Positions 13,263-35,958 of a DNA stretch of 64,000 nt are shown in pieces. Numbering within the stretch: position 1 is the first letter of the stretch; every line of letters begins with the position of its first letter. Origin of the DNA: Candidatus Woesearchaeota archaeon (GTDB lineage: Archaea; Nanobdellota; Nanobdellia; Woesearchaeales; UBA11576); assembly GCA_018675335.1 (NCBI GenBank), contig JABGYH010000007.1, forward strand, positions 308,232-372,231, read 5' to 3'. Both the position numbers and the translations under genes were made by a program. The notes below the pieces were generated by a model. The model ran no database searches, was not told where the DNA came from, and worked only from the letters and a program-made list of their open reading frames with translations.

Positions 13263-13690
13263 ATTACAAACTCAATCGTACTCGATTATTAAAAAAAACT
13301 CAAAACAAAAATAAAATGCAACTAACATTTTTAGGCACCAACTGGTTACGCTCAGCTTGACACGCAACACCCAGTACGATTTCGCAAACTCAATCGTACT
13401 CGATTATTAAAAAAAACTCAAAACAAAAATAAAATGCAACTAACATTTTTGGGCACCAACTGGTTACGCTCAGCTTGACACGCAACATCCAGTACGATTT
13501 CATAAATTCAATCGTACGCAATTTTAAAAAAAAACTCAAAACAAAAACAAAATGCAACTAACATTTTTGGGCACCAACTGGTTACGCTCAGCTTGACACG
13601 CAACATCCAGTACGATTTCATAAACTCAATCGTACGCAATTTTAAAAAAAAACTCAAAACAAAAACAAAATGCAACTAACATTTTTAGGC
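13263..13690. repeat. 118-bp tandem repeat x ~3.6, each unit containing a TATA-like box and the first 27 nt of the RNase Z gene
   Basis: ATG of the repeated unit sits at 13316, 13434, 13552 and 13670 (period exactly 118). The first three copies continue caccaactggttacgctcagcTTGA (a 14-aa uORF). The fourth copy continues into the real rnz ORF. Confidence 0.9.
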
Positions 13691-19502: not shown

Positions 19503-20284
19503 TTTCCAATCTTCCTCACAAAACTTAAGAATCCAGAATGAATAATTTGTCTTGATTTTGGTCTAACTTTTCTACCTTCAACTTGCCACTCTCGTTCTAT
19601 TAACTCAATAGTTTTAAGATGAATAAGATTTTCATGATTGGGAATTTCATTAACAAACTCTGCAGTTTGAGTAATTGTTGGAGAATAAGATACAACAAAA
19701 CCTCCTGGTTTTAGCATTTTTGATGCGTGTTTTAAAACTAACCACGGTTCTGGAAGATCAAGAGTTAATAAATCAACATTTTTTTCTTCAAATCCATCAT
19801 AAATACTTTGATTTTTAACATCAATATTTTTTATATCAAGAATTTTAATATTTTCTTTAACAACTGCAAGATGATCAGGTTCAATTTCATACGTTGTAAC
19901 CTTTTTTACATGGCGCGCTAAAAATAAAGAAAGTGCGCCTGAACCACTACCTGCATCAACAACAATAGAATCTTTACCAACTCCAGTTTGCGCCAGAATA
20001 AAACCAATATCTTTTAGAGGGATTATTTGAGGCAATCTTTTCATCTTTTTATAATCATCAATGAACGCAGAATCAAAAATAAATAATTCTTCACCTTTAC
20101 TAGAAATAACTTTATCGCCATTTGATTTTTTCAGATCTTCCGCTTTGATAAAACCTTTTGACGTGGAAAAATCTTTAGACAAATCAGATAAATAATATCT
20201 TTTTTCTTTTGAAAGAGTAATCTCTTTATCCAAATCTTCAAAATACTTTTTTATGCATTTTTTAATTAAAATTTTAGCGCACAT
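19499..20284 (-). CDS. trmI: tRNA (adenine-N1)-methyltransferase TrmI/Gcd14 family
   Basis: SAM motif VVDAGSGSGALSLFLAR; its stop overlaps the ABCE1 start by 4 nt. Confidence 0.65.
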   Translation of the reverse strand: MCAKILIKKCIKKYFEDLDKEITLSKEKRYYLSDLSKDFSTSKGFIKAEDLKKSNGDKVISSKGEELFIFDSAFIDDYKKMKRLPQIIPLKDIGFILAQTGVGKDSIVVDAGSGSGALSLFLARHVKKVTTYEIEPDHLAVVKENIKILDIKNIDVKNQSIYDGFEEKNVDLLTLDLPEPWLVLKHASKMLKPGGFVVSYSPTITQTAEFVNEIPNHENLIHLKTIELIEREWQVEGRKVRPKSRQIIHSGFLSFVRKIGK

Positions 20285-20348
20285 AAATATAAAAGAAAAA
20301 GAGAAGATTTTATAAAATTATAGCTTTTGAGAACGCATTAAATAAGGC

Positions 20349-22082
20349 TTAATCTATCTTCTCAAGCACTTGCGCCGCTAAATCCTCAGTCCAACCTTTT
20401 CTAATTAAACCTTGTCTAATTTGCTCTTTTGAATATCCTTTCTTCGAAAGTGCTTTAATTGATGCGATTGCAGCTGAAAGCCGCGTATCTTCCTCATGCA
20501 GTTTATTCTTCTCCATATGAGTATCAACCGCAGTAATATGAGTGAAAACATCATCTAACAATTCATTAGACCAACCTTTTTTTGAAAGAACATTTCTAAC
20601 TTCCTCACCCGTAAAGCCATTAGCAAGCGCATGATAAATATACCTTTCCACTGCCATTTCTTTTTCTTTTGATAGAGTTAATTTAGGCTTAGGTTTTGGT
20701 TGCACTACTGGTTTTTCTTCTTGGGTAAAAGGTAGGACAGGTTCAGAGATCTCTTTAGGTGATTCTCCAAGACCTGCCCTGGTTGTTGTTGGGGGTTTTC
20801 CCATAGGCAATTGATAACGGAAAACCGCAATACCACCTATGAGAAGAACTATGATTGACGATGCAATAATCCACGTCCACAAACTAATTGGAGACTTCGG
20901 AGGTGTTGGTGATTCTACAACAGGTTCGGGCGTCGCCTTAATATTTGCCCAACCACTTTCAGTTTTGGTTGTTGCTTGCCCTGTTACTTCAGTTGTTATT
21001 TGAGACTCAACTTTAGGATTTGTTTGAGGAGGAGTTACTTTCTTCTTAGGCGGCAATAAATTAGGCATAGCATAAGATTTTTTCTCAGGATATAATTTAA
21101 AACTCATTATAACAAAACCATCAGCAAGCTCTATATTGATCACAATGTCATCTGAAAATAATTCTGCTAAACCAACAGTTTTTTGCTCTCCTAATTTAAC
21201 TGTGTATGAATAAGGAGTTCCAGTTCTTTTGATGGTTGCTTGTAAATTACCAACTTCAGTAACATCAAAAGGATACTCTAACCCATTAAACAAAATAGTA
21301 AGTTTGTCATTTTTTCTAAGTTTTGCAGTAACACCTTGATCGGTTGGGATAACTACAATAGATGAGGGACTAGATGAAGAAGATCCGCCTCCGCCGCCAC
21401 CACCTGTGTTCCCACCCGCAGAACAATCGTTGCAAATACCACCACAATCAGTTCCAGTTTCAGATCCATCTTTTTTATTATTATTACACATATCTTCCGC
21501 AACAAAAAATGCAGAAAATTGAGTGATTCCCGTAATTGTAATCATGCCAGTATTAGAATCAAAGGATAAATCAGTACCATGAGTTTCGACATTCCTAGTC
21601 ATATTTGGAATTCCAGCATCAAAATCATAAGGCGTGTGAATAACCACCGGAGTAGTTAATGAATCTAACTCTGAAGCATTATAATAAATTGTAAAAGTAT
21701 TATTAACTCCATTTTGTTTTACTTCAAACGCATGCACTGCTAAAACTTCATATTCTGCACCCGAAGTATTAAATGAAGTATTAACATAAGTAAAATCATC
21801 TATGTCTAAAGACCTTGAACTAATATTAACAACAGTTGTTGGTTGAAACGTTGTTGAAATTACTTTAAATTTCTCATCCAACGATGCAATCTCTGCAGTT
21901 AAAATAGTGTCAGGCAAATCTACCTGTTGCGTAGAATTAAATGACTGATTATTATGTAATTCAATTTCGCCCAAACTATAAATCAAACTAACATTTTCTT
22001 TGTTTGTTGCAGAAACAAAACTAAATGAAAATAAAACTAACAAAAACAAAATACAAAATTTGAATAAGTTTTTAGTTCTCAT
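20349..22082 (-). CDS. Single-pass surface protein: signal peptide, extracellular domain with a Cys/Asp-rich motif and poly-Gly/Ser linker, TM helix, cytoplasmic tail with two ~35-aa repeats
   Basis: Signal FCILFLLVLFSFSFVSA; DMCNNNKKDGSETGTDCGGICNDC; GGNTGGGGGGGSSSSS; TM LWTWIIASSIIVLLIGGIAVF; tail repeats …SKKGWSNELLDDVF… and …IRKGWTEDLAAQVL…. Starts 2 nt after the giant gene. Confidence 0.55.
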   Translation of the reverse strand: MRTKNLFKFCILFLLVLFSFSFVSATNKENVSLIYSLGEIELHNNQSFNSTQQVDLPDTILTAEIASLDEKFKVISTTFQPTTVVNISSRSLDIDDFTYVNTSFNTSGAEYEVLAVHAFEVKQNGVNNTFTIYYNASELDSLTTPVVIHTPYDFDAGIPNMTRNVETHGTDLSFDSNTGMITITGITQFSAFFVAEDMCNNNKKDGSETGTDCGGICNDCSAGGNTGGGGGGGSSSSSPSSIVVIPTDQGVTAKLRKNDKLTILFNGLEYPFDVTEVGNLQATIKRTGTPYSYTVKLGEQKTVGLAELFSDDIVINIELADGFVIMSFKLYPEKKSYAMPNLLPPKKKVTPPQTNPKVESQITTEVTGQATTKTESGWANIKATPEPVVESPTPPKSPISLWTWIIASSIIVLLIGGIAVFRYQLPMGKPPTTTRAGLGESPKEISEPVLPFTQEEKPVVQPKPKPKLTLSKEKEMAVERYIYHALANGFTGEEVRNVLSKKGWSNELLDDVFTHITAVDTHMEKNKLHEEDTRLSAAIASIKALSKKGYSKEQIRQGLIRKGWTEDLAAQVLEKID

Positions 22083-22083
22083 T

Positions 22084-25000
22084 TTAGTTTACGTTAACAT
22101 TCTGTTCTACTTTTTCGAAAGAGGAAAACACATTCAAGTAGGATTCATCAAATAAATTAGATTCATTGTCAGATGCATTTATGAAAATACTATAAGTTCC
22201 ATTCTGACTAACCTCATCAAAACTAAGATTATAATCTCCCTCTATATCTGCATCACTAATCGCAGGTATAAAATCATCAGCTTCATATTGAGATAAAGAT
22301 CCATTAGGAAGAATAAATGTTAAATTAAATGAATCAATATTATTTTTAGACGATAATGTAAGTGCAACATCTATCCCGCTATCATTAAACGTCCAACCAG
22401 ACCCGAAGGAAATATTATCAATGAAAATAAAATCTTCTAGTGCATGGAAAGTTGCAATATCAGGATCACCATAAGTTCCTAAATTATCCACACAAGAAAT
22501 ATTTAATACCGTTTCTCCTTGAGATACATTAATTGTAGTATCATTCCCTAACGTGTTCAGATACGTTTTATTTACGACACCGTCAAGATAAATGGTACAG
22601 TTAGCAAGTTCATCCACTGTGAAATTTAAAGGAATTTCTAACGACTCATAAACTCCCCCATTAACAGGAGAATATAAATCAACTCCTGGAGTTGAAACAT
22701 TTAGTTGAACTACAACAGGCGTTGAATTTTTATAATTCAAACCATCAAATGCGCTTATTTTAATTCCGAAATAATCAACATTGTAACTTGAATTTATCCA
22801 CTGATACCAATTATTGGTTGTGTTGGCCACATTAGTAAATGAAGTAATATCTTGAGACGAATCAAATCCAAAATACACATGATACTCTAAAGATTCATTA
22901 TCTATATCTTCTGCAGCATCCCAAGTAATATTAATTGAGCCACCATATTCCTCCCCTGATGATGGATAAGTTATTACTGGCGCTATGTGAGGCATATCAT
23001 TAAATGCAGTAACATTTAAAGTTATATCTGGAGACCACTCTGAAACATTAATTAAATCGCCAGCCCTAAATGAAATTGTTGGCAAAATTTCATCCTCACT
23101 ATTAGAATAATTTGCAGGAGGAGTTATGTTAACAATTCCAGTAGAGTCATTAATTACAACAGTAAAATTACTATTAGATAAATTATATTCATAAGTTAAG
23201 TTATCCAAATCTACATCGAAAAATTCTTCAGATAAATTAATACTTATATTAGATACATCTTCAGTCAGAGACATATTATCAATTTGACCTCCAAAGTAAG
23301 GAGCATCATTAACAGGGATTATTGATATGTTAATCTGAGTTTCAAACCCAATTAAATAGCTATCAACAACATTAATAATTAAAGTAATGTTTTCAACATA
23401 ATCATTACCTAAAGTAATATTATATTCTCCAGTTGTGCTATTAATTAACTCAACAGTTAAAGTTTCATCTAATAACTCAATAGGATCTGGCACAACATCA
23501 TAAGTTAAATTATCACTTGTTGGATCAATATCTTCATCAGGATCAATAAAAAAATCATCTAACGTAATTGTACCAGACAAGTCTTCGAGTATACTAATAA
23601 TGCCTGCACCCATAAATATTGGAGGTGTGCTTTCAATAAAAATTGAACTAGGTAATTCAGTTGAATCATTATTACCATCAACTGCAACAACTGACCAATT
23701 TAAAGTTTTATTAATGAACTTGTGTAAATCAACAACCTCAAAAGTATAAATCCCACTATCTAAGTAATGTGTTGAATTCTGAGTTTCGTTAACACTAGAT
23801 ACTTTAGAAACAATCGTTCCATTAGGATACTCAAATGAAATATTTACTAAACTTAGCGTTTCATCAGTAATATTTACTGAAAGATAAATACTATCACTAG
23901 CAACCACTGTCGTTAAAATAGCATCACCTGAAACATTCATTGTTTGATTTTGTGCAATGATCGGACTTGAATGATCAATATAAACTTCCCTACTTTCAGG
24001 ATTGGTTTCAGCAGGACCCGCACCATTCTCACCATTTAATTGAATAACATATTCTCCTTCAGCCCAATCACCAACATAAATTAAATCAGTGTAATTATGA
24101 TCTTCTGCATACACAGTTTCTTGAGTTTCTTTAAATTTAATTAAACCTTGCGAATCATAAATAGTAAAAGAACTATTGATTGCATTTGTAACTTGAAACC
24201 CTGAATCAATATTAGTTTCGTTGTATATGTGCCCACTCTCAATAAAAGAGCTATTTGTATCATTAATCCCAAATATTAATTGCGGAGCTCTTTTATCAAC
24301 TGTAAAATTAATAAATGATTGATTAGTGTTATTGAATTCATCTTTTGCAGTCACAATAAAAGTTAAATTCGTTACATTATTTTCAATATCTGAAAAATCT
24401 AGTAAAATATCTCCATTGGAAGGTAAACTTCCAGTCATATTATCATAAGTTATATTTGTATTATTAGCATACTTAACTTGATATGTTCTCTCAGTAATTG
24501 CATTATTATCAGTAATTGTTGTTTGAAATTCCACTACTCCCGAAATAATATCATCCTGGTCAGGGAAAACAAATTCTACCGAGGGATTAGTTCTATCAAG
24601 TTCAAACTGTCTTGTAGTTGAGTAAACACAAGAATTGTTAGCAACAGCATTATCGCAAGCAACAACTCTCCAATAATAAGTTCCATCCTCAGAGTTTGAT
24701 GTATCAACTTCAAAAGTTTCAGCAGTAGCCCCAGTTGGTTCGCTGATAAAAATAGAAGTTGGAAGTTTCAAATCACGTTCATAAATCCAAATTTTAGATC
24801 CGTTAGTTGCAACTACAATATTATCACTAAATCCATAATCAGTAACTGAATCTGATTCGTCAATTAACTGATTGTTGTTTTGATTTATAAAAAAACCATC
24901 CAAACTGTTATTTATTGAATAATCTCCAAAATAACTATTTTCAAAATTTTCTTCAGGATACGAAATAAAACTATTATTATTTCCAAAATAAACTGCAGTT

Positions 25001-28000
25001 CCACCATTATTATCAGAATAACTGGATACAACTATTGGGAAAACTGACAAATTGTCGCCAGCATAATCCAGTTTCATAGATAACTTAGATTCTGAATCCG
25101 CTAAACTTAAGATTTCACCAGATTTATTAGACTGCAAATCATGCATCCAAACAGAGCTGCCATCACCCCAAATAAAAGACCCTCCTTTAACAGAAACTGC
25201 ATCAGCACCATAAACCCCATTTATCATAACTAATTCTAAGGAATCTAATTTAAAATTAAATATTCCTGAATCATTTACATAAATTAAATTATTCCCCTCA
25301 ACATCATAAGTGTTTGATTTAAAATCAGTTACTACCTCTGATCTTTTTGAAGTTGTTAAATCATAACTTAATAAATCCTTTTGCGCACCATTTGTTTTTT
25401 GATAATAAATTTTATTTTTGTAGATTTTAGGCATTGTTTCTGCAGATGTTGTTGTTGTTATTTGAGCAGTATTATTAGTCACAATATTTCTTGAAAAAAT
25501 GTTCCAATCACCCGACCTATTATCAGCCCAAACAATAATATCTCCAAAAACATCTGGATCTGCAATAGTTGCAACGGACGGCGTTAAAATTTCATATCTT
25601 GAAAAATTATTCAACTCATTATCCGAATAATTAAAACTAGTTTCATTATCAATTTCAATTGAGTAAATAAAATAATCATCATCAAGGTCACTTGTTAAAT
25701 TCCAAGATAAAATAATATCTGAATTAGTTTTAGTATTGTTTGAAACTCCAATTAATTCAGGAATTGCTGGAGCACTATTTGAAACTCTAACATAACCTGA
25801 CGAACTATTAGTTCTTTCTGTCTCATCAGCAATATTTACAGCACATGAAAGAGTTGAATCGCGAGTTATTGAATATTCTGATAAATTCAATTCAGCAGAA
25901 GTAAAATTTCCTGAAAGGAATAAATTTGTGGAATTCTCAAAGTTTACTCCGTCGTCAAACCACTGAAACAATGCCGAATCAACATTATTATCTTGATCCG
26001 TATAATTTGCAGAACAAAACGCAATTGAATCTGCATAAACAAATTCGCCGTCTGAATTATTAACAGTTACGTTAAATACTTGAGGGGCATCTGGCCAATT
26101 AATTATAAAATTAACATTAGTATTTTGAGTATGATCTTGAGCAACTCCCTGACTATCCCTACAAGAAATATACCAAGTAAAATTACCTTGACCACCAGTT
26201 GAAATTTCGCCACCAACATTAAACCTATTTACAGTCGTATTAGTACAAGAATAATTAGTTAAAGTAAAATTATCACATTCTTGAATATTTTCATTACTAC
26301 TATACCCAATATCAACATAAGTTAAAACACATTCACTAGCTTCTTCTGCATTGAAATTAATAGTAACATCTTTATCAGTTTCATTTACAAAAATCCAACC
26401 ATCGCCAGGATTTGAATCATCATTAATTTGATAAACTTCCGGTGCGGTTGGTGCAGAATTATCAATATAAATAATACCATTTGAATAAGTTGAAGCATTA
26501 GGATTATTAAAACCATTATAGGGAGTTATTTTAAAGTAATATTTAATTTGATTATCTAAACTAAGTCCACTAACTGAAACTTCAGAATTAGTAACATTAC
26601 CACTTGCACCACTTACTGCCGGACAACTATTAGGAATATCTCCACCACACTGATCATCCTCAGGATTGTACTGCAAAATTTCCCAAGCATAATGATCTAT
26701 ACCCGTTTCAGGATCAGAACTTGGAGTCCAACTAGCATGCAAATATGAACTATCAAAAGTTTGGAAACCTTGATCAGTAACAGATGAAATTAAAGTAGGC
26801 CCAGTTAAGTCAGATTTCATAACTTTTTGTATTGCCCCCGAATCATATACTTTTAAGTTACCTGCACCATCATAAACATGAAGTTTGAACGCATGACACT
26901 TACCAGAAATTAAATTCACATCTTCAATTGATTCGGCAAGACCATTACTAGGAGTAAGATAATGAATCAAATTAAAATCATAAATTGGAGGGCAAGTATT
27001 ATTAAGACCTACAGGTAATGAAGACGTTCCCATCCACAAAGAAACATTTTTGATTCCTGCAACCGAATTACTGGGCGTATCTAAACCATTATCTAAACCA
27101 GATCCATTATCCCCCCCCGAATTATAAAAAATATCCACGCTTTCAATATCATAATCGCCTCCCACATAAGAAATCGCACCACCAACTGGCTCTGTGAAAT
27201 CAGTAGTTATTCCTGCAGATGAAAAAAACTCAGACCAACCACTACTATAGTTAGAAAAACTATTTCCACTTTTTGCTCTAACATTAAAATAATATTTTAC
27301 TCCTTCTTCCAAAATTAAATTTGAAACTAAAACTGAGGTTTGACTTGTTTGCGTGAGCGGATGAACTGAATCAAAGCTTGCTTCCCATTCATTAGTTCCA
27401 GTTCCGATTGAATACTCATACCCAATAATTTCAGACTCTGCATCAGTAAAATTCCATGAAGCATTTAAGGATGATTGTGAATTTGCCCAAGCAGATGCGC
27501 CTTGTGACACGCAATTCCCCTCACAAGCAGGAGCACTATCATCAATATACAAAATACCATCACTAGAAACTGGCGCACTTGTAGCTCCAGCCAAATTAAC
27601 TGCCCTAACATTAAAATAATAAACTTCATTAGTTAAAAAAGTAAAATTATAAGCTGATTCTATTTCTGAACCCGTATGAGTTATGTTAATTTCTTTAGTT
27701 TGTTTTGATATATTAACCCAATTTAATTTATCAACAAGACTTGGATCTTTACCAACTGAAACTTGATAATAATCTAAATCAGTATCTTCACTCCCACTAG
27801 CTAAAGTCCAATTAGCCCAAATCCAATTTTTACTAGTCACATCCCAATTATTATAGTCTCTAACCCAACCAATACTGACATTAGTTAGTATAACATTAAT
27901 TTCAGTCACATTAATTTTTTCAGTACCAATATAATCCGATACATTAAACTTAACATTATTTGTTCCATTAAATAAAACCAAAGTAACATTACATGAATAA

Positions 28001-31000
28001 TATGAAGTATTGATTTCAGAACACAAAATATTATCTTCAAATTCAGACATATTTAATCCCAAAGAATCATTAACTGATTCAGGACTAACTGCATGAATAC
28101 TAAAGTTATCATCTTTTGACGCATTAATCCACAATGAAGAAATATTTACTTCATTATTATCAGATACGTTAAACTCAATAAAAGTTTCAGTTGATGCAGA
28201 AACATTTGAAATTTCACCCAAATAAAAAACAGGAGCGTCACCTGCATCATAATAAACGTATTGTGAAATTGATTTGTATCCTTCAGTTTCGTTTTTAACT
28301 CCCACTGCATAAATTTCATTAGTTTGATTGGCAGTTAAATTTCCAGAAATATTAATTGATACATTAAAAAATCCATGCCTCCACTCTGCGCTATGAATTA
28401 CCATATCCGCAGACGTTGTTACCGAACTTTCTAATGTAGGATCGAGTATTATTCTAGGATCTTCTCCAGGATTATCTTCTATTTCAGTTACATTATATCT
28501 TTGCCAATAAGTTCTATCATGATTTGAAAACTCAACCCAATAATTTGCCCACGCAGATTCGCTAATATCTAATGAGTCATATTCTGCTTGAGAAACAAAA
28601 ACATAAGATGCACCTTCTGCATGATTTGAACTAATGTTTAATACACCTAATTGATTTGAAGTATTATTTACATCTTGAGATAATAATGATACTTCATTAT
28701 CCTCATCTTTGATTACAACAGTAATATTTAAATGGGTTAAGCTTTCTTCGTCAATATACCCAATAACATTAAAATCTTCATTTTCTACACTAGGCAAATC
28801 CCACAATTTAGGAATTGCTTCAACAGGACCTGTTGGATGATTAATAAAATCATCAGTAGCACTACCAGAATTTCCTTTCTTATCCGTACCCCAAACAGAG
28901 ATTCTATTAACGCCACCATACAAAGAAACATTAGCTTGGAAATGTCCTGAAGGATACTCTGTCGAATACAAAGTAACTTGTGTTCCCACAGGAATAATTG
29001 ATTCTAAATTATCTGTAAAATTAACTCTAATATCATTACCCGTTCTATTAGCCTGATCAATTGCATATCTTTGGAAATAAGTCTTATCATGATTTGAAAA
29101 TGTAACATAATCATATGTCAAAAATGCGTCTTCACGCTCAGCAGTCCATTCAACCAACACAACATTTTGACCTTCTTCAGCATGATAATTTAAGGTAATA
29201 CTTTCACCTTCATATGTTGAATAAATTTCTGAATTTGTTTGAGTATCAACACTAAACTCATAATTTTCATCCTCATCAACTCTTAAAATAACAATTGTTG
29301 ATTCAATATCAGACTCATCATAATAACCCGCAACAACTGTTGTAGAATTATCAGATTGATTTGTTGGATGCAACCAAATTTGTTTATACAAAATAGGTGC
29401 AATAGGTGCAGTTACATCATCAACAAGAGTAAACGTCGAAGATAACGATTGATTCTCAAATTTATTTGAAGTACAATTAATATTATAATTATACACTCCT
29501 GGAGCAGTAAAATTTGTAACAGAATTATTAAATTTGTAAACTCCAAAATTTGAATCATAAATCATAGGCGTATTTGAAATTTTAGATAATCCATTCCAAG
29601 ATTGAGAAATTGAAATTGTACAACTACCATTATTAGTTGATGCAAAATCATCTCCTCCTGTTTGATCATTTATTGATTGTCCTGAAAGATCATTACCTTG
29701 ATCAGTTATGAAAAACTTAGTATAGTTTGCATAAAACCAAATACGATGATAAGTTTCTAAAGTACCATTTTCAGTATAAGTATTAATTTTACTATTATTA
29801 GTAGTTGAATAATTTGAAAATGAATTAACTTGAGTTGAAAAAATTCCATTCGTGTAATTTCTTGAACTGCTCGGACAAATTGAGTTATTACATAAAACTC
29901 CATTCCTAAGTAAAGCAGGAATTTGTTCGTAGGAAAGATTTGTTAAATTTAATTGAACTTGTTTGTTTGCTAAGTTGTATAACAAAACAGAATCCACACT
30001 AATTGAATTTTGTTCAATTGTAGCATAATTAAGATTCATTTTTTTAAAATTAATTGTTTCAAGGAATTCAATTGAACCGTAAGTGTTTTCCAATAAAACA
30101 TTTTCTGCAGAGTCTAATTCATCAATCAACGTAAAATTATAAGTATACTCTGCTTGATTAAATCCTTCCCCACAATCAGGTTCATCCCAACCAATATCCC
30201 CATCACAATCCCAATCAATAAGTCTATCTGCAAGATCAGTACAATGATCAACAGAAGAGTTTGAATGATTTAATGCGCCCGGATTTACCGCAGGATTATT
30301 ATCATTACAATCTTGAGGAATAAAATAAGAATCGTTATCATAATCAGTTGCCTTACTTACATTAAAAAAATCACTCTGATTAGTAAAACCAATAACTCCA
30401 TATGCTAACGGAGTAACATTATAATAAAACGACGTATTTTGCGGATCACCATAAGTAATTTGGTTATACGGAGTCCACTCAAAATAATTATTTACTTCAG
30501 TATCTGTTAAAGTAACCGAACCATAAAAAGTACCTTCAACACCAGTATCATTTTTGTAAAGATCAACCTGATACGTAATTGCATCAAAATTACCAACAGA
30601 ATTCCAAGTTAAATTAACAACATCCTCACTAGTTTCAAACGCAGCATCAATTGGAGGAGACGTTTTCAAACCACATTCAGTATCAGGAATAGTTGCACCT
30701 GCCGGATGAAAATTACCTGTGTTGTTTTGGCAAAAAGTGTTGTTTGTTAAATAGTCTTCACCAATTCCTTTCAAAAATAAATTGTTTGAAACTAAATTTC
30801 CCTCATTATTCTCAATAAATGCAAGATCATTTCCTGAACTATTAAAATAATTATTATAAATAATATTAGAACTGGATACTACACCAATTCCCGAAATAGT
30901 CGAGTTTATGAATGAATTATTTTCAATTAAACTCAAATTTGAATCAAGATAAATACCATATGATGAACCAGATATTGAATTATTAATAATTGAAATATTA

Positions 31001-32832
31001 ACTGAGGGTTCATCAGTAAATACACCCATGTCAAAGTTACCCATAATTAAACAATTAGTAATAACTGAATTATTCACATATTGATCAATTTCAATTCCTC
31101 TGTCAGTAATTCCTTGAATAGCAAAACCTGCGCAATCAAGAGCTACATTATTAGCATTGATGTTAAGACCATTTGTGGAACAACTAGTAATATTATCAAC
31201 CAAATAAGTATGTTCAACAGTCAAATCAGAATTACAAAATGTAGAAGTACCATCACCAATCCAAGCATAACCACAATCAAAAGATGCAGGGAAATTTTTA
31301 GCAGTTAATGTGTAATTATTACCAACACCGTTGATACAGAAGTTGTTGTTGCCATTATCTAAAATGCCATTTCCATAAAAAATATTATTGGAAAAATTAT
31401 TATATTCTCCAGAATTAAGGTCTAAATCATATTTAGAGTTTCCAGCATTAATAAAAACATTATTTATGAAACTATTATTATTTCCCCCTTGCAAATAAAC
31501 TCCCGATCCAGTTGTGCTATTAATAGTATTATTTTCAAATAAACCATATTCTCCAACTTGTTGTATGCCATAAATAACATTGTTTAAATTGGTGTTAAAT
31601 ACTCTTAAGTAATCTGCATTATTTGAAGCGCCAATACCATATGAAAAATTATTAATTATACAATTATTTATGGTGATATTGGAATGAGGATTGTTAAATA
31701 AATCTACTCCAAAATTAAACTGGGTTCCATCACCGAGAATAAGATGGTCGTCACAATCTAAATTAAGATTATCCTCCCCAATGTTGAGTCCATTACCAGA
31801 ACAAGTAGATTCTCCAGTAGCTCGAGTTAAATTTTCAGTTAAAATTAAGTTGCCAATAACAGTTACGCCACAAACAGGAGGCAAAGTTTCTGGAGAATAT
31901 GCTTCAGTCAAATTACTACAAGGATAGGCATCCATTTCTACTCCTTCTACGTAATAGTTACCATAATAGTTTGATGAAGTTGTAAATCTTCCCGCAGTAA
32001 GTTCTGAAGTTACAGGCCCACAATAATAACTAGTTCCTGCAGATACATCATTAACATTACCACTTAGAAAAGTATTTAGCCAAAATTGGTTATTTGTCGA
32101 CGATCCAGTCACATTAATGTTAGTTTCCATATCTGAAAAAGTATTTCCTACAAAATTATTGGAGTCCGCATTTGAAAGCGAAACGTCAACCTTACCATTT
32201 TCTTCATTATCCAAAATATTAAATGAAAAATTGTTATTATCCGCACTAGTATCAAAAACTACTGCATGATCTTTAGTAGTATTACAATCATATATAGAAT
32301 TGTTAAAAAATAAATTATAATCTCCTTGTATATGTATGCATGAATCCGTAGAATCATGGAAGGTATTGTTCGTAAAATTTGAATATCTCACATTATCAAA
32401 CAAAATTACATTAATCACAAACCCTGAAATATCGCAATTTCTAATTGTAGTATAATTCCACTGATAACCAACATTAAAAATATTAATGCCATAATCCTGA
32501 TCATACAAAGCATAATCGCCACTAATTTCAAATCCACCACAATCCAAAGTTACATTGTTTGCACCTATATAGAATCCATTACCCGTACAGGCTAAGCCCT
32601 CATCTAAAGTATAAACTCCATTTTCAGTTGCTAAAGTATCACCACAGGCAAGAGTTTGCCCAGGTGTTTTGACTGCCATCCCAGTTATTGTTGGATCGCC
32701 TGGAAGGATTATTGCTGCTGCTATTAAAGAACCAATCAAAGCTATTACTGCCACTACTGAAAGTAGTTCTGCATTCTTGTTTGATCTCATAAAACCTCTT
32801 TTCTCTTTTTGTTCTTTAGTAGTCAGGTTCAT
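22084..32832 (-). CDS. Giant (3582 aa) cell-surface protein built largely from right-handed parallel beta-helix repeats, extremely rich in N-x-S/T sequons; N-terminal TM/signal anchor
   Basis: Single uninterrupted 10.7-kb ORF. N-terminal hydrophobic anchor LLSVVAVIALIGSLIAAAIIL. Repeated N-N-x-F/I-x-x-N motifs (e.g. NNSFINNVFINAGNSKYDLDLNSGEYNNFSNNIFYGNG). Cys/Asp-rich motif DWDCDGDIGWDEPDCGE. Well over a hundred N-glycosylation sequons by eye. Confidence 0.8.
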   Translation of the reverse strand: MNLTTKEQKEKRGFMRSNKNAELLSVVAVIALIGSLIAAAIILPGDPTITGMAVKTPGQTLACGDTLATENGVYTLDEGLACTGNGFYIGANNVTLDCGGFEISGDYALYDQDYGINIFNVGYQWNYTTIRNCDISGFVINVILFDNVRYSNFTNNTFHDSTDSCIHIQGDYNLFFNNSIYDCNTTKDHAVVFDTSADNNNFSFNILDNEENGKVDVSLSNADSNNFVGNTFSDMETNINVTGSSTNNQFWLNTFLSGNVNDVSAGTSYYCGPVTSELTAGRFTTSSNYYGNYYVEGVEMDAYPCSNLTEAYSPETLPPVCGVTVIGNLILTENLTRATGESTCSGNGLNIGEDNLNLDCDDHLILGDGTQFNFGVDLFNNPHSNITINNCIINNFSYGIGASNNADYLRVFNTNLNNVIYGIQQVGEYGLFENNTINSTTGSGVYLQGGNNNSFINNVFINAGNSKYDLDLNSGEYNNFSNNIFYGNGILDNGNNNFCINGVGNNYTLTAKNFPASFDCGYAWIGDGTSTFCNSDLTVEHTYLVDNITSCSTNGLNINANNVALDCAGFAIQGITDRGIEIDQYVNNSVITNCLIMGNFDMGVFTDEPSVNISIINNSISGSSYGIYLDSNLSLIENNSFINSTISGIGVVSSSNIIYNNYFNSSGNDLAFIENNEGNLVSNNLFLKGIGEDYLTNNTFCQNNTGNFHPAGATIPDTECGLKTSPPIDAAFETSEDVVNLTWNSVGNFDAITYQVDLYKNDTGVEGTFYGSVTLTDTEVNNYFEWTPYNQITYGDPQNTSFYYNVTPLAYGVIGFTNQSDFFNVSKATDYDNDSYFIPQDCNDNNPAVNPGALNHSNSSVDHCTDLADRLIDWDCDGDIGWDEPDCGEGFNQAEYTYNFTLIDELDSAENVLLENTYGSIEFLETINFKKMNLNYATIEQNSISVDSVLLYNLANKQVQLNLTNLSYEQIPALLRNGVLCNNSICPSSSRNYTNGIFSTQVNSFSNYSTTNNSKINTYTENGTLETYHRIWFYANYTKFFITDQGNDLSGQSINDQTGGDDFASTNNGSCTISISQSWNGLSKISNTPMIYDSNFGVYKFNNSVTNFTAPGVYNYNINCTSNKFENQSLSSTFTLVDDVTAPIAPILYKQIWLHPTNQSDNSTTVVAGYYDESDIESTIVILRVDEDENYEFSVDTQTNSEIYSTYEGESITLNYHAEEGQNVVLVEWTAEREDAFLTYDYVTFSNHDKTYFQRYAIDQANRTGNDIRVNFTDNLESIIPVGTQVTLYSTEYPSGHFQANVSLYGGVNRISVWGTDKKGNSGSATDDFINHPTGPVEAIPKLWDLPSVENEDFNVIGYIDEESLTHLNITVVIKDEDNEVSLLSQDVNNTSNQLGVLNISSNHAEGASYVFVSQAEYDSLDISESAWANYWVEFSNHDRTYWQRYNVTEIEDNPGEDPRIILDPTLESSVTTSADMVIHSAEWRHGFFNVSINISGNLTANQTNEIYAVGVKNETEGYKSISQYVYYDAGDAPVFYLGEISNVSASTETFIEFNVSDNNEVNISSLWINASKDDNFSIHAVSPESVNDSLGLNMSEFEDNILCSEINTSYYSCNVTLVLFNGTNNVKFNVSDYIGTEKINVTEINVILTNVSIGWVRDYNNWDVTSKNWIWANWTLASGSEDTDLDYYQVSVGKDPSLVDKLNWVNISKQTKEINITHTGSEIESAYNFTFLTNEVYYFNVRAVNLAGATSAPVSSDGILYIDDSAPACEGNCVSQGASAWANSQSSLNASWNFTDAESEIIGYEYSIGTGTNEWEASFDSVHPLTQTSQTSVLVSNLILEEGVKYYFNVRAKSGNSFSNYSSGWSEFFSSAGITTDFTEPVGGAISYVGGDYDIESVDIFYNSGGDNGSGLDNGLDTPSNSVAGIKNVSLWMGTSSLPVGLNNTCPPIYDFNLIHYLTPSNGLAESIEDVNLISGKCHAFKLHVYDGAGNLKVYDSGAIQKVMKSDLTGPTLISSVTDQGFQTFDSSYLHASWTPSSDPETGIDHYAWEILQYNPEDDQCGGDIPNSCPAVSGASGNVTNSEVSVSGLSLDNQIKYYFKITPYNGFNNPNASTYSNGIIYIDNSAPTAPEVYQINDDSNPGDGWIFVNETDKDVTINFNAEEASECVLTYVDIGYSSNENIQECDNFTLTNYSCTNTTVNRFNVGGEISTGGQGNFTWYISCRDSQGVAQDHTQNTNVNFIINWPDAPQVFNVTVNNSDGEFVYADSIAFCSANYTDQDNNVDSALFQWFDDGVNFENSTNLFLSGNFTSAELNLSEYSITRDSTLSCAVNIADETERTNSSSGYVRVSNSAPAIPELIGVSNNTKTNSDIILSWNLTSDLDDDYFIYSIEIDNETSFNYSDNELNNFSRYEILTPSVATIADPDVFGDIIVWADNRSGDWNIFSRNIVTNNTAQITTTTSAETMPKIYKNKIYYQKTNGAQKDLLSYDLTTSKRSEVVTDFKSNTYDVEGNNLIYVNDSGIFNFKLDSLELVMINGVYGADAVSVKGGSFIWGDGSSVWMHDLQSNKSGEILSLADSESKLSMKLDYAGDNLSVFPIVVSSYSDNNGGTAVYFGNNNSFISYPEENFENSYFGDYSINNSLDGFFINQNNNQLIDESDSVTDYGFSDNIVVATNGSKIWIYERDLKLPTSIFISEPTGATAETFEVDTSNSEDGTYYWRVVACDNAVANNSCVYSTTRQFELDRTNPSVEFVFPDQDDIISGVVEFQTTITDNNAITERTYQVKYANNTNITYDNMTGSLPSNGDILLDFSDIENNVTNLTFIVTAKDEFNNTNQSFINFTVDKRAPQLIFGINDTNSSFIESGHIYNETNIDSGFQVTNAINSSFTIYDSQGLIKFKETQETVYAEDHNYTDLIYVGDWAEGEYVIQLNGENGAGPAETNPESREVYIDHSSPIIAQNQTMNVSGDAILTTVVASDSIYLSVNITDETLSLVNISFEYPNGTIVSKVSSVNETQNSTHYLDSGIYTFEVVDLHKFINKTLNWSVVAVDGNNDSTELPSSIFIESTPPIFMGAGIISILEDLSGTITLDDFFIDPDEDIDPTSDNLTYDVVPDPIELLDETLTVELINSTTGEYNITLGNDYVENITLIINVVDSYLIGFETQINISIIPVNDAPYFGGQIDNMSLTEDVSNISINLSEEFFDVDLDNLTYEYNLSNSNFTVVINDSTGIVNITPPANYSNSEDEILPTISFRAGDLINVSEWSPDITLNVTAFNDMPHIAPVITYPSSGEEYGGSINITWDAAEDIDNESLEYHVYFGFDSSQDITSFTNVANTTNNWYQWINSSYNVDYFGIKISAFDGLNYKNSTPVVVQLNVSTPGVDLYSPVNGGVYESLEIPLNFTVDELANCTIYLDGVVNKTYLNTLGNDTTINVSQGETVLNISCVDNLGTYGDPDIATFHALEDFIFIDNISFGSGWTFNDSGIDVALTLSSKNNIDSFNLTFILPNGSLSQYEADDFIPAISDADIEGDYNLSFDEVSQNGTYSIFINASDNESNLFDESYLNVFSSFEKVEQNVNVN

Positions 32833-32849
32833 CTTATTTATTAAATTTA

Positions 32850-33155
32850 TTATAACTCCTCGAGATTATTTTTGGATCGTGATTTTTTGTAAGTGTCAAC
32901 TGCTTTGTCAATTGATTTTTTCTTAAGTGGAATTTTGTCAGATTTTTCTTTTAATTTTTGAATTATTGGAGAATCGCTTGGAAGATCTTCACGTGGAATT
33001 TTTTTGAGTAGAATACCTTCATCAGAAATAGAAAATGCCCAAAAGCCCGTACCTTCACCTATTCCAAGCTCTTCACGAATGTCCTTAGGAATAACTATTT
33101 GCCCGCGTTTATCACACTGAACAATCTTTGGGTACTTCTTCACTTTAAAATACAA
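32850..33155 (-). CDS. AbrB/SpoVT-type (swapped-hairpin) DNA-binding domain protein
   Basis: CDKRGQIVIPKDIREELGIGEGT matches the AbrB/MazE/SpoVT looped-hinge-helix motif. Lies 17 nt upstream of the giant gene on the same strand. Confidence 0.6.
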   Translation of the reverse strand: MYFKVKKYPKIVQCDKRGQIVIPKDIREELGIGEGTGFWAFSISDEGILLKKIPREDLPSDSPIIQKLKEKSDKIPLKKKSIDKAVDTYKKSRSKNNLEEL

Positions 33156-33400
33156 TCGCCTCTTTTATTCTGAAAATCAGATTAAAACCTCTGAAATTCA
33201 TTTTAAACGTCTGATTTTCGTTTAAATTGTTTGAATTTCTTGAAAAAATTTAGTTTTTCTGAATTATTTAACTGAAAGTCTCACTTATATTCTGAAAATA
33301 AGAAAAAGCATCGTATATAAATGTTTCTATTTTTTTAAAGCTTTAAACAAACTTAAAGTTAAGAAAACCTATTTAAATGAGCAAAGAATAGCAGATAGCC
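33156..33400. promoter_or_regulatory. Divergent promoter region with repeated TCTGA(A/T) motifs, including a perfect palindrome TCTGAAAATCAGA
   Basis: ttattctgaaaatcagatt, cgtctgattttcg, tttttctgaatta and atattctgaaaataag lie between the AbrB-like and ArsR-like genes. Confidence 0.4.
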
Positions 33401-35930: not shown

Positions 35931-35958
35931 ATAAAAAATAAAACACTATTTCTTGAAA

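What the first reader, a model, noticed from the sequence alone, without database searches (positions are those of the whole stretch)
20349..33155. Three-gene surface locus: AbrB-like regulator, 3582-aa sequon-saturated beta-helix giant, and a receptor-like single-pass protein
A 10.7-kb ORF, about 17% of the window, is built from parallel-beta-helix repeats with an N-terminal membrane anchor. It carries Cys/Asp-rich putative metal-binding motifs and a very high density of N-x-S/T sequons. It is preceded (17 nt) by an AbrB/SpoVT-type DNA-binding gene. It is followed (2 nt) by a 577-aa signal-peptide protein with a related Cys/Asp motif, a poly-Gly/Ser linker, a TM helix and a cytoplasmic tail. 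The tight spacing suggests one transcription unit. From established knowledge, giant beta-helix surface proteins are hallmarks of episymbiotic small-genome archaea and are candidates for host attachment. The coupling to a dedicated small regulator and a receptor-like partner is a coherent, uncharacterised module.
Basis: partly seen in the sequence, partly recalled or inferred. Interest (0 to 1): 0.8.

Follow-up and report, generated by a model that had tools for sequence, protein, structure and literature searches.

The report
Repressor-led giant surface adhesin operon
A tiny-genome (Woesearchaeota, DPANN) archaeon carries a conserved three-gene cassette: a small AbrB-type repressor with its own palindromic operator, a fast-evolving 3,582-residue sugar-coated surface protein, and a separate membrane anchor. 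The anchor contains a domain resembling the self-cleaving GAIN/ZU5 domains of animal adhesion receptors, so the cassette is a good candidate for how these cells attach to, and let go of, a partner.

Summary
The three minus-strand ORFs are real. They are identical in two independent assemblies and colinear with orthologues, so this is not a chimera. The description is only partly right. Beta-helix modules cover aa ~60-720 (about 20%). The rest is fn3/Ig-like, cadherin-like and beta-propeller domains. Sequon enrichment is real: 176 against 79±7 expected.

New findings:
1. The 97-aa AbrB-type gene belongs to a uniform Woesearchaeota family (442 clusters). In 17 of 18 loci it directly precedes a signal-bearing surface gene.
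2. Its promoter carries a conserved BRE/TATA and the palindrome TCTGA-N3-TCAGA. There are 22 exact copies in 5.2 kb of AbrB-upstream DNA and none in 358 kb of the remaining DNA.
3. Single-chain relatives match the giant at their N-terminal and central parts and gene 3 at their C-terminus. The two therefore correspond to one surface protein that is split here.
5. The cytoplasmic tail is a RecX-like repeat.

Verdict: an autoregulated, hypervariable, N-glycosylated two-chain adhesin-like module. It is a new variant of known kinds. Adhesion, DNA binding and self-cleavage are all inferred.

The parts
33314..33327 (-). BRE/TATA-like promoter element GAAACATTTATATA of the AbrB-led unit
   Evidence: Read. 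The same 14-nt type of element lies 21-33 nt (start to start) upstream of the first operator in about 15 related loci.
33291..33303 (-). Operator O1, TCTTAtttTCAGA, with 1 mismatch to the palindrome. It lies just downstream of the TATA box, over the expected transcription start.
   Evidence: The position relative to TATA is conserved across loci.
33190..33263 (-). Three further WTCAGA half-sites in the same orientation (33190-33195, 33210-33215, 33258-33263) in the long 5' leader
   Evidence: There are six half-sites in about 130 nt, against about 1.8 per kb across the window. Across loci the density is 17.1 per kb against 1.13 per kb.
33169..33181 (-). Operator O2, the exact palindrome TCTGA-N3-TCAGA, ending 25 nt before the GTG start
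   Evidence: It is the only exact copy in the 64 kb window. There are 22 exact copies in 5.2 kb of AbrB-upstream DNA from 20 loci and 0 in the other 358 kb.
32850..33143 (-). AbrB/SpoVT/MazE-type DNA-binding protein, 97 aa, GTG start
   Evidence: Pfam and TIGR01439 matches exceed their cut-offs. PDB AbrB/SpoVT N-domains match at E ~3e-3. The family has 442 clusters, nearly all 95-97 aa. The block P-K-x2-Q-x-D-x-RGQIVIPK-x2-R is invariant.
22084..32832 (-). Giant surface protein, 3582 aa. An alternative start at Met15 (32790) is preceded by GAGG.
   Evidence: Orthologues are colinear at 30-41% identity in L027, L029, L030 and L003.
32671..32778 (-). N-terminal hydrophobic segment (aa 19-49) followed by an ITGMAV motif (aa 49-54). 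It could be a signal peptide or a signal anchor.
   Evidence: The same TM + [ILV]TG[FYMA]A arrangement occurs in orthologues and in relatives that also have a C-terminal TM.
30673..32655 (-). Three right-handed beta-helix (NosD/CASH-like) modules, aa ~60-720
   Evidence: Pfam Beta_helix E = 3.5e-11 (43.4 bits) for the aa 360-780 segment. Beta_helix and NosD are sub-threshold for the aa 1-420 segment. An internal DNA repeat has 612-nt spacing (D12).
30154..30345 (-). MopE-like Cys/Asp motif, aa 830-893
   Evidence: Sub-threshold PF11617 match, E = 0.026. PF11617 is listed as 'faint' for the L003 orthologue.
28189..29412 (-). Duplicated family-defining module (aa 1141-1548) carrying the F-S-N-H-D-R-T-Y-F-Q-R-Y motif; fn3/Ig-like fold
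26083..27915 (-). fn3-like domain run, aa ~1640-2250, the part best conserved across the family
   Evidence: Pfam fn3 at 25.2-25.3 bits. tblastn and blastp matches to L011-L021 and to P0165, P0173, P0179 and P0188.
24772..25542 (-). Beta-propeller repeats, aa ~2431-2687
   Evidence: NCBIfam TIGR04275 beta_prop_Msarc, E = 6e-13, below the whole-protein cut-off.
22978..23337 (-). Cadherin-like / tandem-95 domains, aa ~3166-3285
   Evidence: Cadherin_4, Big_9, Cadherin_5 and NF012211, all just below their cut-offs.
22080..22086 (-). TAAaATG junction: giant stop, 1 nt, gene 3 start
   Evidence: L003 has the same 1-nt spacer, and L032 has a TAATG overlap.
20349..22082 (-). Gene 3: a 577-aa type-I membrane protein, the anchor chain
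   Evidence: All 9 sequons lie in aa 30-160 and none in the tail.
21492..22001 (-). Gene 3 domain D1 (aa 28-197): a GAIN_B/ZU5-like beta-sandwich. Phe189-Ser190 (21513-21518) sit in the turn before the last strand.
21423..21488 (-). 'DCGG' Cys motif CNNNKKDGSETGTDCGGICNDC (aa 199-220)
   Evidence: Relatives carry 4-6 tandem copies next to the TM helix. There is no Pfam model.
21093..21362 (-). Gene 3 domain D2 (aa 241-330), a beta-sandwich following the Gly/Ser linker
   Evidence: AF2 pLDDT 80-89.
20811..20891 (-). Transmembrane helix, aa 398-424
20355..20669 (-). Cytoplasmic tail: two three-helix RecX-like repeats (aa 472-525 and 535-576)
20285..20348 (-). T-rich 64-nt spacer before the tRNA methyltransferase (TrmI/GCD14-type) gene. 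It may hold a terminator and/or the next promoter.
   Evidence: This is not decisive: T-runs are also common inside the giant gene.

Best explanation
This is one autoregulated unit of a Woesearchaeota (DPANN) archaeon that builds a two-chain, heavily N-glycosylated cell-surface adhesin-like complex.

Shown:
- A strong consensus BRE/TATA promoter is followed by two copies of a lineage-invariant palindrome (TCTGA-N3-TCAGA). One lies over the expected transcription start and one just before the first start codon.
- The first gene encodes an AbrB-type swapped-hairpin DNA-binding protein whose DNA-binding segment is invariant across the lineage.
- The next two genes are the N-terminal and C-terminal parts of what is a single polypeptide in relatives.

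Inferred:
- The AbrB-type protein binds the palindromes and throttles transcription of itself and of the surface genes behind it. Repression would work by blocking RNA polymerase recruitment.
- The giant is exported. It displays three beta-helix (glycan-binding or glycan-cutting) modules, followed by a long chain of Ig/fn3/cadherin-like domains and a propeller.
- Gene 3 supplies the membrane-proximal stalk, the TM helix and a cytoplasmic RecX-like repeat tail.
- Its first domain is a GAIN_B/ZU5-like ('MAIN'-type) sandwich that may self-cleave at Phe189|Ser190. That would give a force-sensitive, non-covalent joint that allows release.

The most likely role is attachment to, and detachment from, a host cell or surface. 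The rapid divergence of the exposed parts fits partner- or predator-driven evolution.
For: Operator and promoter:
- The exact palindrome occurs once in the 64 kb window, upstream of the AbrB gene.
- Across 20 loci there are 22 exact copies in 5.2 kb of AbrB-upstream DNA and 0 in the other 358 kb. Half-sites are 15-fold enriched.
- The geometry of TATA, O1 and O2 is fixed.
- The region matches no Rfam family, and its RNA fold is unremarkable, z = -0.99.

AbrB family:
- HMM matches exceed their cut-offs.
- The DNA-binding block is invariant.
- The next gene overlaps by ATGA in 11 of 18 loci, lies within 24 nt in five more, and carries an N-terminal hydrophobic signal in 17 of 18.

One protein in two chains:
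- P0179, P0173, P0188, P0136, P0175 and P0165 each match the giant (E down to 1e-74) and then the gene 3 TM helix and tail (E down to 1e-17).
- The junction is TAAaATG.
- The same order is found in L003, L029, L030, L031 and L032.

Topology and glycosylation:
- Sequons are 2.2-fold over expectation in the giant.
- In 16 family members they occur at 4.60 per 100 aa outside the membrane and 0.07 per 100 aa in the tails.

Domains.

GAIN/ZU5-like D1:
- An invariant Ser in the last beta-turn.
- A published precedent for autoproteolytic microbial GAIN-like domains with the order signal peptide, adhesion domains, MAIN, anchor (bioRxiv 10.64898/2026.05.12.724683).

Fast evolution: the flanking genes are 50-79% identical, the giant 26-41% and gene 3 34%.
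Against: - No transcript data. Co-transcription and the transcription start are inferred from spacing and motif positions only.
- In L018 the gap after the AbrB gene is 228 nt, and in L009 an unrelated gene is inserted. In the window, an AT-rich 17-nt gap plus the alternative Met15 start leaves room for an internal promoter.
- Binding of the AbrB-type protein to the palindrome is untested. Another factor could bind it.
- Conserved housekeeping synteny on both sides inflates the apparent co-conservation.
- In the window D1 sits on the anchor chain, so it cannot by itself explain how the giant is held.
- No AglB gene was identified in the window.
- No evidence bears directly on adhesion or on a host.
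Confidence: 0.6

Rival explanations
1. The pair is the cell's S-layer. The giant would be the outer lattice protein and gene 3 its membrane stalk, as with SlaA/SlaB in Sulfolobales. The AbrB-type protein would set the level of the cell's most abundant envelope protein.
For: - The gene order is a large exported glycoprotein followed by a smaller C-terminally anchored protein, tightly coupled.
- The promoter is a strong consensus one.
- There is one such locus per genome, at a fixed syntenic position.
- Sequon loading is very high.
- S-layer proteins diverge fast, and candidate DPANN S-layer proteins are Ig-rich glycoproteins (bioRxiv 10.1101/2023.10.27.564410).
Against: - The cassette ranges from 349+321+966 aa to more than 3300 aa between species, and it is split or fused in different ways. 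That is odd for a lattice-forming protein.
- Beta-helix tips, a propeller, cadherin-like domains and a GAIN/ZU5-like joint are adhesin or enzyme features.
- A multi-repeat cytoplasmic tail is not needed for an S-layer stalk.
- No match to any S-layer family was found in Pfam or NCBIfam.
Confidence: 0.2
2. The AbrB-type gene is an independent, lineage-wide housekeeping regulator that only autoregulates. Its position before the surface genes would be inherited synteny, and the giant would have its own promoter.
For: - The AbrB gene is far more conserved than its neighbours and is present in every related genome.
- The whole region, from DnaG to ABCE1, is syntenic.
- L018 has a 228-nt gap and L009 an inserted gene.
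- In the window there is an AT-rich stretch before the giant, and an SD-like GAGG before Met15.
Against: - A 4-nt ATGA overlap with the next gene in 11 of 18 loci leaves no room for a promoter.
- The gene behind the AbrB gene is a signal-bearing surface protein even where it is not homologous to the giant (L015-L020). The association is therefore with a class of gene, not with one inherited neighbour.
- O2 lies in the shared leader.
Confidence: 0.12
3. The giant is mainly a secreted or releasable polysaccharide-degrading enzyme, with beta-helix lyase/hydrolase-type modules, used for feeding or for breaching a host envelope. It would not be an adhesin.
For: - The N-terminal beta-helix modules are NosD/pectate-lyase-like.
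- Microbial GAIN-like domains are often attached to glycoside hydrolases and are proposed to release them.
- Nanobdella pectin-lyase-like surface proteins have been proposed to attack the host wall.
Against: - No catalytic family match was found.
- About 80% of the protein is Ig/fn3/cadherin/propeller scaffold.
- Orthologues keep the scaffold while varying the number of beta-helix modules: one in L003, three here.
Confidence: 0.1
4. Assembly chimera, or a pseudogene split by a frameshift.
For: Giant repetitive ORFs in metagenome assemblies are often mis-assembled. The 1-nt spacer could look like a frameshift.
Against: - The sequence is identical in two independent assemblies.
- The giant is colinear with orthologues over aa 533-3452 and aa 1090-3581.
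- Gene 3 has its own signal peptide, and free-standing orthologues of 519-670 aa exist in other lineages.
Confidence: 0.02

Closest known systems
Microbial GAIN-like 'MAIN' domain surface proteins (Brogan & Rudner, bioRxiv 2026, 10.64898/2026.05.12.724683) and the GAIN_B / ZU5-FIIND autoproteolytic sandwiches of animals
   Same: - The single-chain relatives have the same order: signal peptide, adhesion or enzymatic domains, GAIN_B/ZU5-like sandwich, cell-surface anchor.
- A Ser preceded by Phe or Leu sits in the turn before the last strand. YfkN is cleaved at HF|S in the equivalent beta-turn.
   Different: - There is no sequence-level match.
- The His of the HXS motif is not conserved.
- The anchor is a TM helix plus a cytoplasmic repeat tail, not a sortase, SLH or cell-wall anchor.
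- In the window the domain is on a separate polypeptide from the adhesion domains.
- Cleavage is untested.
- No Woesearchaeota or Nanoarchaeota entries were found in the stored (truncated) supplementary tables.
Giant surface proteins of other DPANN archaea: nanohaloarchaeal 'SPEARE'/SVXNc_0300 (PMC10266531) and the Nanobdella pectin-lyase-like glycoproteins (bioRxiv 10.1101/2023.10.27.564410)
   Same: - The hosts are small-genome episymbiotic lineages.
- The proteins are among the largest in the proteome.
- They have a signal peptide, Ig/fn3 arrays, beta-helix folds and dozens of N-glycosylation sequons.
- They are strain-specific and fast evolving, and have been proposed to act in host contact.
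   Different: - The window proteins have no VirB4/TraG-like ATPase domain or neighbour.
- No detectable homology to those proteins was sought or found.
- Here there is a conserved AbrB/operator leader, a separate anchor chain and a RecX-like tail.
SlaA/SlaB two-component S-layer of Sulfolobales
   Same: A large exported glycoprotein gene is followed by the gene for a smaller protein with a signal peptide, beta-sandwich domains and a C-terminal TM anchor. Both are Ig-rich and N-glycosylated (established knowledge).
   Different: - No sequence-family match.
- Extreme variation in size and architecture between species.
- Adhesin-type tip domains.
- A long cytoplasmic tail.
AbrB/SpoVT transition-state regulators and AbrB-fold (VapB/MazE-type) antitoxins that autorepress through palindromic operators
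   Same: The N-terminal swapped-hairpin domain is shared. The gene lies first in its operon, with inverted repeats in its own promoter.
   Different: - No toxin gene follows.
- More distant AbrB hits that do sit next to PIN genes lack the palindrome.
- The cargo is a surface protein.
- The family is single-copy, 96 aa long and lineage-wide.
RecX (three-helix repeat regulator of RecA)
   Different: The repeats lie at the cytoplasmic end of type-I membrane proteins, in 2 to about 14 copies. There is no evidence of any link to RecA/RadA. Membership is not met.
Hypervariable Ig-domain gene module of Thermococcales (PMC8416519; abstract only)
   Same: An archaeal locus centred on a large, hypervariable Ig-domain protein at a conserved position.
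   Different: A different lineage and different neighbouring genes. The paper was not compared in detail.

Membership tests
AbrB/MazE/SpoVT DNA-binding family (PF04014, TIGR01439) | N-terminal swapped-hairpin (looped-hinge helix) domain recognised by the family HMMs | tested here: met
   PF04014 scores 31 bits (cut-off 24.7). TIGR01439 scores 41.1 bits (cut-off 28.3). PDB AbrB/SpoVT N-domains match at E ~3e-3.
AbrB/MazE/SpoVT DNA-binding family (PF04014, TIGR01439) | Binds DNA as a dimer or tetramer | not testable with these tools
   Indirect evidence only: a lineage-invariant palindrome confined to the gene's own promoter.
Type II toxin-antitoxin (VapB/MazE-type antitoxin) | An adjacent cognate toxin gene (PIN, MazF, etc.) | tested here: not met
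   The downstream gene is a signal-bearing surface protein in 17 of 18 loci. Only distant AbrB hits (37-52% identity: L023, L025) sit next to PIN-like genes.
Right-handed parallel beta-helix (PF13229 / PF05048 NosD) | HMM match above the family cut-off | tested here: met
   43.4 bits against a cut-off of 25.9 for the aa 360-780 segment. The aa 1-420 segment is sub-threshold at 21.7 and 20.8 bits.
   Matches are confined to aa ~60-720 of 3582. The rest is fn3/Ig, propeller and cadherin-like.
MAIN / GAIN_B / ZU5-FIIND autoproteolytic domains | GAIN_B/ZU5-type beta-sandwich fold | tested here: inconclusive
MAIN / GAIN_B / ZU5-FIIND autoproteolytic domains | H-x-(S/T) catalytic motif in the turn before the last strand | tested here: inconclusive
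   Ser190 is invariant in 17 of 17. Position -1 is Phe or Leu in 14 of 17. The turn position is right. Position -2 is variable: His is never found there, and Ser is found there in 4 members, giving 'SFS' as in FIIND.
MAIN / GAIN_B / ZU5-FIIND autoproteolytic domains | Sequence-profile membership (GPS, GAIN, ZU5, FIIND models) | tested here: not met
   No such family appears at E <= 10 for any of the 17 D1 sequences. A profile search against PDB sequences found none either.
MAIN / GAIN_B / ZU5-FIIND autoproteolytic domains | Self-cleavage, with the fragments staying associated | not testable with these tools
   Needs expression of aa 26-240 with and without S190A.
RecX (PF21982 and NCBIfam RecX equivalogs) | HMM match above the cut-off | tested here: not met
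SlaA/SlaB or other described S-layer families | Match to an S-layer family model | tested here: not met
   No S-layer family among the Pfam or NCBIfam hits for any segment. Lattice formation is not testable here.
Nanohaloarchaeal giant 'SPEARE'-type proteins | A C-terminal or neighbouring VirB4/TraG-like ATPase | tested here: not met
   No P-loop ATPase domain in the giant or in gene 3. The downstream genes are TrmI and ABCE1. One distant tail-family member, P0183, does carry a cytoplasmic P-loop ATPase-like stretch (a Walker-A GATGGGKS motif read in the sequence, not scanned against any family).
MopE-type metal-binding motif (PF11617) | HMM match above the cut-off | tested here: not met
   15.2 bits against a cut-off of 27, E = 0.026.
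Diversity-generating retroelement target | A template/variable repeat pair and a reverse transcriptase nearby | tested here: not met
   No repeat pairs the giant or gene 3 with another window region. Only internal domain duplications were found.

The most novel reading that the evidence does not exclude
The cassette is an archaeal counterpart of an adhesion-GPCR-type mechanosensor, built from different parts.
- A hypervariable giant adhesin is held on a His-less GAIN/ZU5-like self-cleaving joint.
- Pulling by a bound host cell separates the joint.
- The event is relayed by the anchor's RecX-like cytoplasmic repeats to the operon's own AbrB-type repressor, for example by sequestering it.
- Contact or detachment would thereby reset expression of the adhesin.

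This would be a lineage-wide contact-sensing circuit in Woesearchaeota and its main determinant of host range.
Probability: 0.08. Interest if true: 0.9.

Novelty: new variant of a known kind. Interest (0 to 1): 0.64.

Why it matters
Woesearchaeota are abundant and, to my knowledge, have no described pure culture or co-culture (not checked here). How they recognise and hold a partner is unknown. This locus offers directly testable parts:
- a 13-bp operator and a 97-aa protein suited to a gel-shift experiment;
- a roughly 170-residue domain with one invariant serine, suited to a self-cleavage assay;
- a fixed genomic address, between the AbrB gene and trmI, at which the most variable surface protein of each species can be read from metagenomes.

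If the repressor-operator pair is real, it is a rare defined cis-regulatory element for a DPANN lineage. If the joint self-cleaves, it extends the newly reported microbial GAIN-like domains to TM-anchored, two-chain archaeal adhesins.

Tried and rejected
1. A homologue search with the whole giant timed out. The search with its core found nothing because N/S/T-rich words swamped the word filter. Giant relatives were instead reached through AbrB-anchored loci and the exhaustive search with the tail.
It was redone with window and P-sequence substrings.
3. Foldseek against the PDB with the full gene 3 model gave nothing at E <= 1e-3. The afdb50 library was unavailable.
4. The first operator pattern was mis-specified with an N4 spacer and corrected to N3.
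5. An RNA-element reading of the leader was rejected. There was no Rfam match, the fold z-score was -0.99, and the stem is invariant rather than co-varying.
6. A toxin-antitoxin reading was rejected.
7. Oligo-T terminator mapping was uninformative at 30% GC.
8. No AglB was found in the window. Two polytopic ORFs gave only sub-threshold STT3 similarity.
9. BLAST self-comparison of the giant found no internal repeat at E <= 1e-3. The module duplication appeared only through orthologues and DNA repeats.
10. No DGR-type repeat pair was found.
11. A class III (prepilin-like) signal was considered for the giant's N-terminus. Several orthologues fit K/R-G/A-Q/E (L008, L009, L027, L030), but the window protein has Asn at position -2. 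Left open.
12. No paper in the held library links AbrB-type genes to DPANN surface proteins.

Full report
**1. The observation**

The three ORFs lie on the minus strand as stated: 32850..33155, 22084..32832 (3582 aa) and 20349..22082 (577 aa). Two further genes follow. One is a GCD14/TrmI-type tRNA methyltransferase (19499..20284). The other is ABCE1 (17751..19502), which overlaps it.

The region is 100% identical in a 556-kb ENA contig and in an independent Logan assembly. The giant is colinear with orthologues over nearly its whole length. It is therefore not an assembly chimera.

The giant carries 176 N-x-S/T sequons. Its own composition predicts 79±7 (z = 13.4), and most other ORFs in the window have 0-1.5 per 100 aa. 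In 16 members of the wider family, sequons occur at 4.60 per 100 aa outside the membrane and 0.07 per 100 aa in the cytoplasmic tails. This fixes the topology and argues that the sequons are used.

Four corrections apply:
- Beta-helix matches cover only aa ~60-720.
- The spacer between the giant and gene 3 is 1 nt, TAAaATG.
- The AbrB-type gene most likely starts at the GTG at 33143, giving 97 aa like its orthologues.
- The 'metal-binding' motif is a single sub-threshold MopE-like match.

**2. What the giant is made of**

The domains, from the N-terminus:
- One hydrophobic segment (aa 19-49), followed by an ITGMAV motif.
- Three NosD/CASH-like beta-helix modules.
- A MopE-like Cys/Asp knot.
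- A run of fn3-like domains.
- Beta-propeller repeats, TIGR04275, E = 6e-13.
- Cadherin-like/tandem-95 domains.

This is a modular adhesin-type architecture with a possible glycan-binding or glycan-cutting tip. It is not a beta-helix protein.

**3. The AbrB-type gene and its operator**

The 97-aa protein passes the AbrB family cut-offs. It belongs to a very uniform family of 442 clusters, nearly all 95-97 aa long, from Woesearchaeota/Nanoarchaeota. The block P-K-x2-Q-x-D-x-RGQIVIPK-x2-R is invariant.

A scan of one genome per species returned 19 loci. Fifteen are close orthologues, all from DPANN MAGs. Together with loci reached through protein look-ups, 18 loci have enough downstream sequence to read. 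In these:
- the gene after the AbrB gene overlaps it by ATGA in 11;
- it lies within 24 nt in five more;
- it encodes a protein with an N-terminal hydrophobic signal in 17.

That next gene ranges from 349 aa to more than 3300 aa and is often not detectably homologous to the giant.

Reading the upstream DNA side by side revealed a conserved BRE/TATA (GAAACATTTATATA in the window) and a palindrome, TCTGA-N3-TCAGA.
- The window holds one exact copy in 64 kb (33169-33181). A one-mismatch copy (33291-33303) lies in the same intergenic region.
- Across 20 loci there are 22 exact copies in 5.2 kb of AbrB-upstream DNA and none in the other 358 kb. Half-sites are 15-fold enriched.
- The first site starts 21-33 nt after the start of the promoter element, which places it over the expected transcription start. 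The second ends 4-25 nt before the start codon.

The leader matches no Rfam family and folds no better than shuffled sequence. The stem never co-varies. The element is therefore best read as a protein-binding DNA site.

The simplest binder is the AbrB-type protein itself, whose DNA-binding block is as invariant as the site. This step is inferred, not shown. More distant AbrB-fold hits (37-52% identity) sit next to PIN-like genes and lack the palindrome. This subfamily is thus distinct from antitoxins.

**4. Gene 3 and the giant are two parts of one protein**

A word-indexed search found only two homologues of gene 3. One of them, in locus L003, sits in the order AbrB, 3093-aa giant (31% identical, colinear), gene 3 homologue (34%, same 1-nt spacer), TrmI. 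L029 and L030 repeat the pattern.

An exhaustive search with the cytoplasmic tail found 78 representative clusters. Nearly all those examined are type-I membrane proteins carrying the repeat at their extreme C-terminus. Six of them (P0179, P0173, P0188, P0136, P0175, P0165) match the window's giant in their N-terminal and central parts (E down to 1e-74). They match the gene 3 TM helix and tail at their C-terminal end (E down to 1e-17).

Free-standing gene-3-like proteins (P0127, P0128) again follow a large ORF and precede TrmI. In L027, the closest relative, the giant itself is split into two ORFs, and the second has its own signal peptide.

The cassette is therefore one surface protein that has been cut and rejoined at domain boundaries in different lineages. 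In the window, gene 3 is its anchor end.

The flanking genes are 50-79% identical between these genomes. The giant is 26-41% identical and gene 3 34%. The exposed parts are the fast-evolving ones.

**5. The anchor chain**

The AF2 model was built from nine sequences and has a mean pLDDT of 65, with 70-89 in the folded domains. It shows:
- a signal peptide;
- beta-sandwich D1 (aa 28-197);
- a 22-residue Cys motif (C..DG.E.G.DCGG.C..C), which has no Pfam model and occurs in 4-6 tandem copies in relatives;
- a Gly/Ser linker;
- beta-sandwich D2 (aa 241-330);
- a Pro/Thr-rich spacer;
- a TM helix;
- two three-helix units.

An alignment of 17 D1 domains from split and fused relatives has two invariant residues. 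One is Ser190, within the motif [F/L]-S-x-[F/W/Y]-x-[L/V]-[A/V]-[E/D]-D. In the model, Phe189-Ser190 lie in the turn between the last two strands.

A 2026 preprint reports that GAIN-like 'MAIN' domains of bacteria and archaea self-cleave at H-F|S in exactly such a turn. It also reports that they sit between adhesion or enzymatic domains and a surface anchor, and its structure-based tables label the domain ZU5.

D1 is thus a candidate member of this kind, with four caveats:
- it has no sequence-level match;
- it has no conserved His at position -2;
- the fold scores are moderate and come from a predicted model;
- in the window it is on the anchor chain, so it does not explain how the giant is retained.

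**6. Most likely working**

An AbrB-type repressor sits on two operators and limits transcription from a strong promoter that drives itself and the surface genes. Termination-reinitiation at TAAaATG couples the anchor to the giant.

Both chains are exported and N-glycosylated. The giant projects its beta-helix tip on a long Ig/fn3 stalk. Gene 3 provides the membrane-proximal stalk, a possibly self-cleaving and force-sensitive joint, the TM helix, and a cytoplasmic repeat tail of unknown partner.

The shown steps are the gene order, domains, topology signal, operator conservation and split/fused relationship. The inferred steps are DNA binding, co-transcription, glycosylation, association of the two chains, self-cleavage, and adhesion to a host.

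**7. Rivals**

- An S-layer of the SlaA/SlaB type fits the gene order, the promoter strength and the one-locus-per-genome pattern. It fits poorly with the extreme architectural variation and the adhesin-type domains.
- The AbrB gene may be an independent regulator kept nearby by synteny. This fits L018 and L009, but not the ATGA overlaps, nor the fact that non-homologous surface genes take the same position.
- An enzymatic role for the beta-helix tip remains open.
- Chimera and pseudogene readings are excluded for practical purposes.

**8. Novelty**

Giant glycosylated surface proteins are already known in DPANN archaea (PMC10266531; bioRxiv 10.1101/2023.10.27.564410). Microbial GAIN-like domains are reported in a preprint. 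AbrB-fold autorepressors are classical.

Four things were not found in the held literature:
- the lineage-wide AbrB/operator leader in front of a hypervariable surface cassette at a fixed address between the AbrB gene and trmI;
- the two-chain form;
- the His-less TM-anchored GAIN/ZU5-like domain;
- the RecX-like cytoplasmic repeat and the DCGG motif.

I rate the finding a new variant of known kinds, with moderately high interest.

Noticed in passing
window 32671-32778 (giant aa 19-54); also L003, L008, L009, L012, L027, L029, L030 and P0134/P0166/P0182/P0197: Many Woesearchaeota surface proteins have an N-terminal hydrophobic helix followed 5-20 residues later by [I/L/V]-T-G-[F/Y/M/A]-A. This includes proteins that also have a C-terminal TM helix. 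Several of these N-termini also fit a class III (prepilin-like) K/R-G/A-Q/E site. The arrangement may be a sorting or processing signal.
   Followed up: partly
window 21423-21488 (gene 3 aa 199-220); L013/P0136, L021, P0155, P0173, P0175: A 22-24-residue Cys motif, C-x-[DN]-[GN]-x2-[NQ]-x-[DG]-E-x-[GD]-x-DCGG-x-C-x2-C, occurs once here and in 4-6 tandem copies just outside the TM helix of relatives. It has no Pfam model.
   Followed up: partly
P0183 (3000 aa), P0149, P0156, P0189, P0198: The RecX-like cytoplasmic repeat also occurs in soluble proteins made only of repeats. In one giant (P0183) its cytoplasmic part also carries a P-loop ATPase-like stretch (Walker-A GATGGGKS, read by eye, not scanned), which recalls the ATPase of nanohaloarchaeal giant proteins.
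   Followed up: no
L027 10295-20291: In the closest relative (AbrB 78% identical), the giant orthologue is split into a 2318-aa ORF and an ORF of at least 1096 aa. The second has its own signal peptide. The break falls at about aa 2600 of the window protein.
   Followed up: partly
L032 2403 and 3959-3962; L017, L019, L020: In several relatives the tRNA methyltransferase (TrmI/GCD14) gene overlaps or abuts the last surface gene (ATGA or a 1-nt gap). The transcription unit may there extend into a housekeeping gene. In the window the gap is 64 nt.
   Followed up: partly
window 13266-13692: A 118-bp tandem repeat, 3.6 copies at 95% identity, lies in the intergenic region and runs into the start of the metallo-beta-lactamase-fold ORF 13670..14578.
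   Followed up: no
window 3988-5217 (-): A second sequon-enriched ORF (409 aa; 15 sequons against 6.9 expected, z = 3.4) matches no family. It is probably another surface glycoprotein.
   Followed up: no
window 44312-45799 and 45947-47509 (-): Two adjacent ORFs (495 and 520 aa) have only sub-threshold similarity to archaeal STT3/AglB oligosaccharyltransferase and no Pfam match. They could be divergent glycosylation enzymes.
   Followed up: partly
window 33361-33401 (+): The divergent HTH_20/TFE-alpha-like gene (33401..34036) has a TATA-like CTATTTAAATG about 25 nt before its ATG, which suggests a leaderless mRNA. This contrasts with the leader of about 150 nt predicted for the AbrB unit.
   Followed up: no
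window 35938-36023: A 21-nt tandem repeat (TTAAAT[AG]TTATTTATGCTAAA) lies between the AAA_18 kinase-like gene and the DnaG primase gene.
   Followed up: no
L030 about 9975-10105: A GC-rich insertion of about 130 nt separates the half-site cluster from the AbrB start. The JGI gene call extends the AbrB protein to 131 aa there.
   Followed up: no
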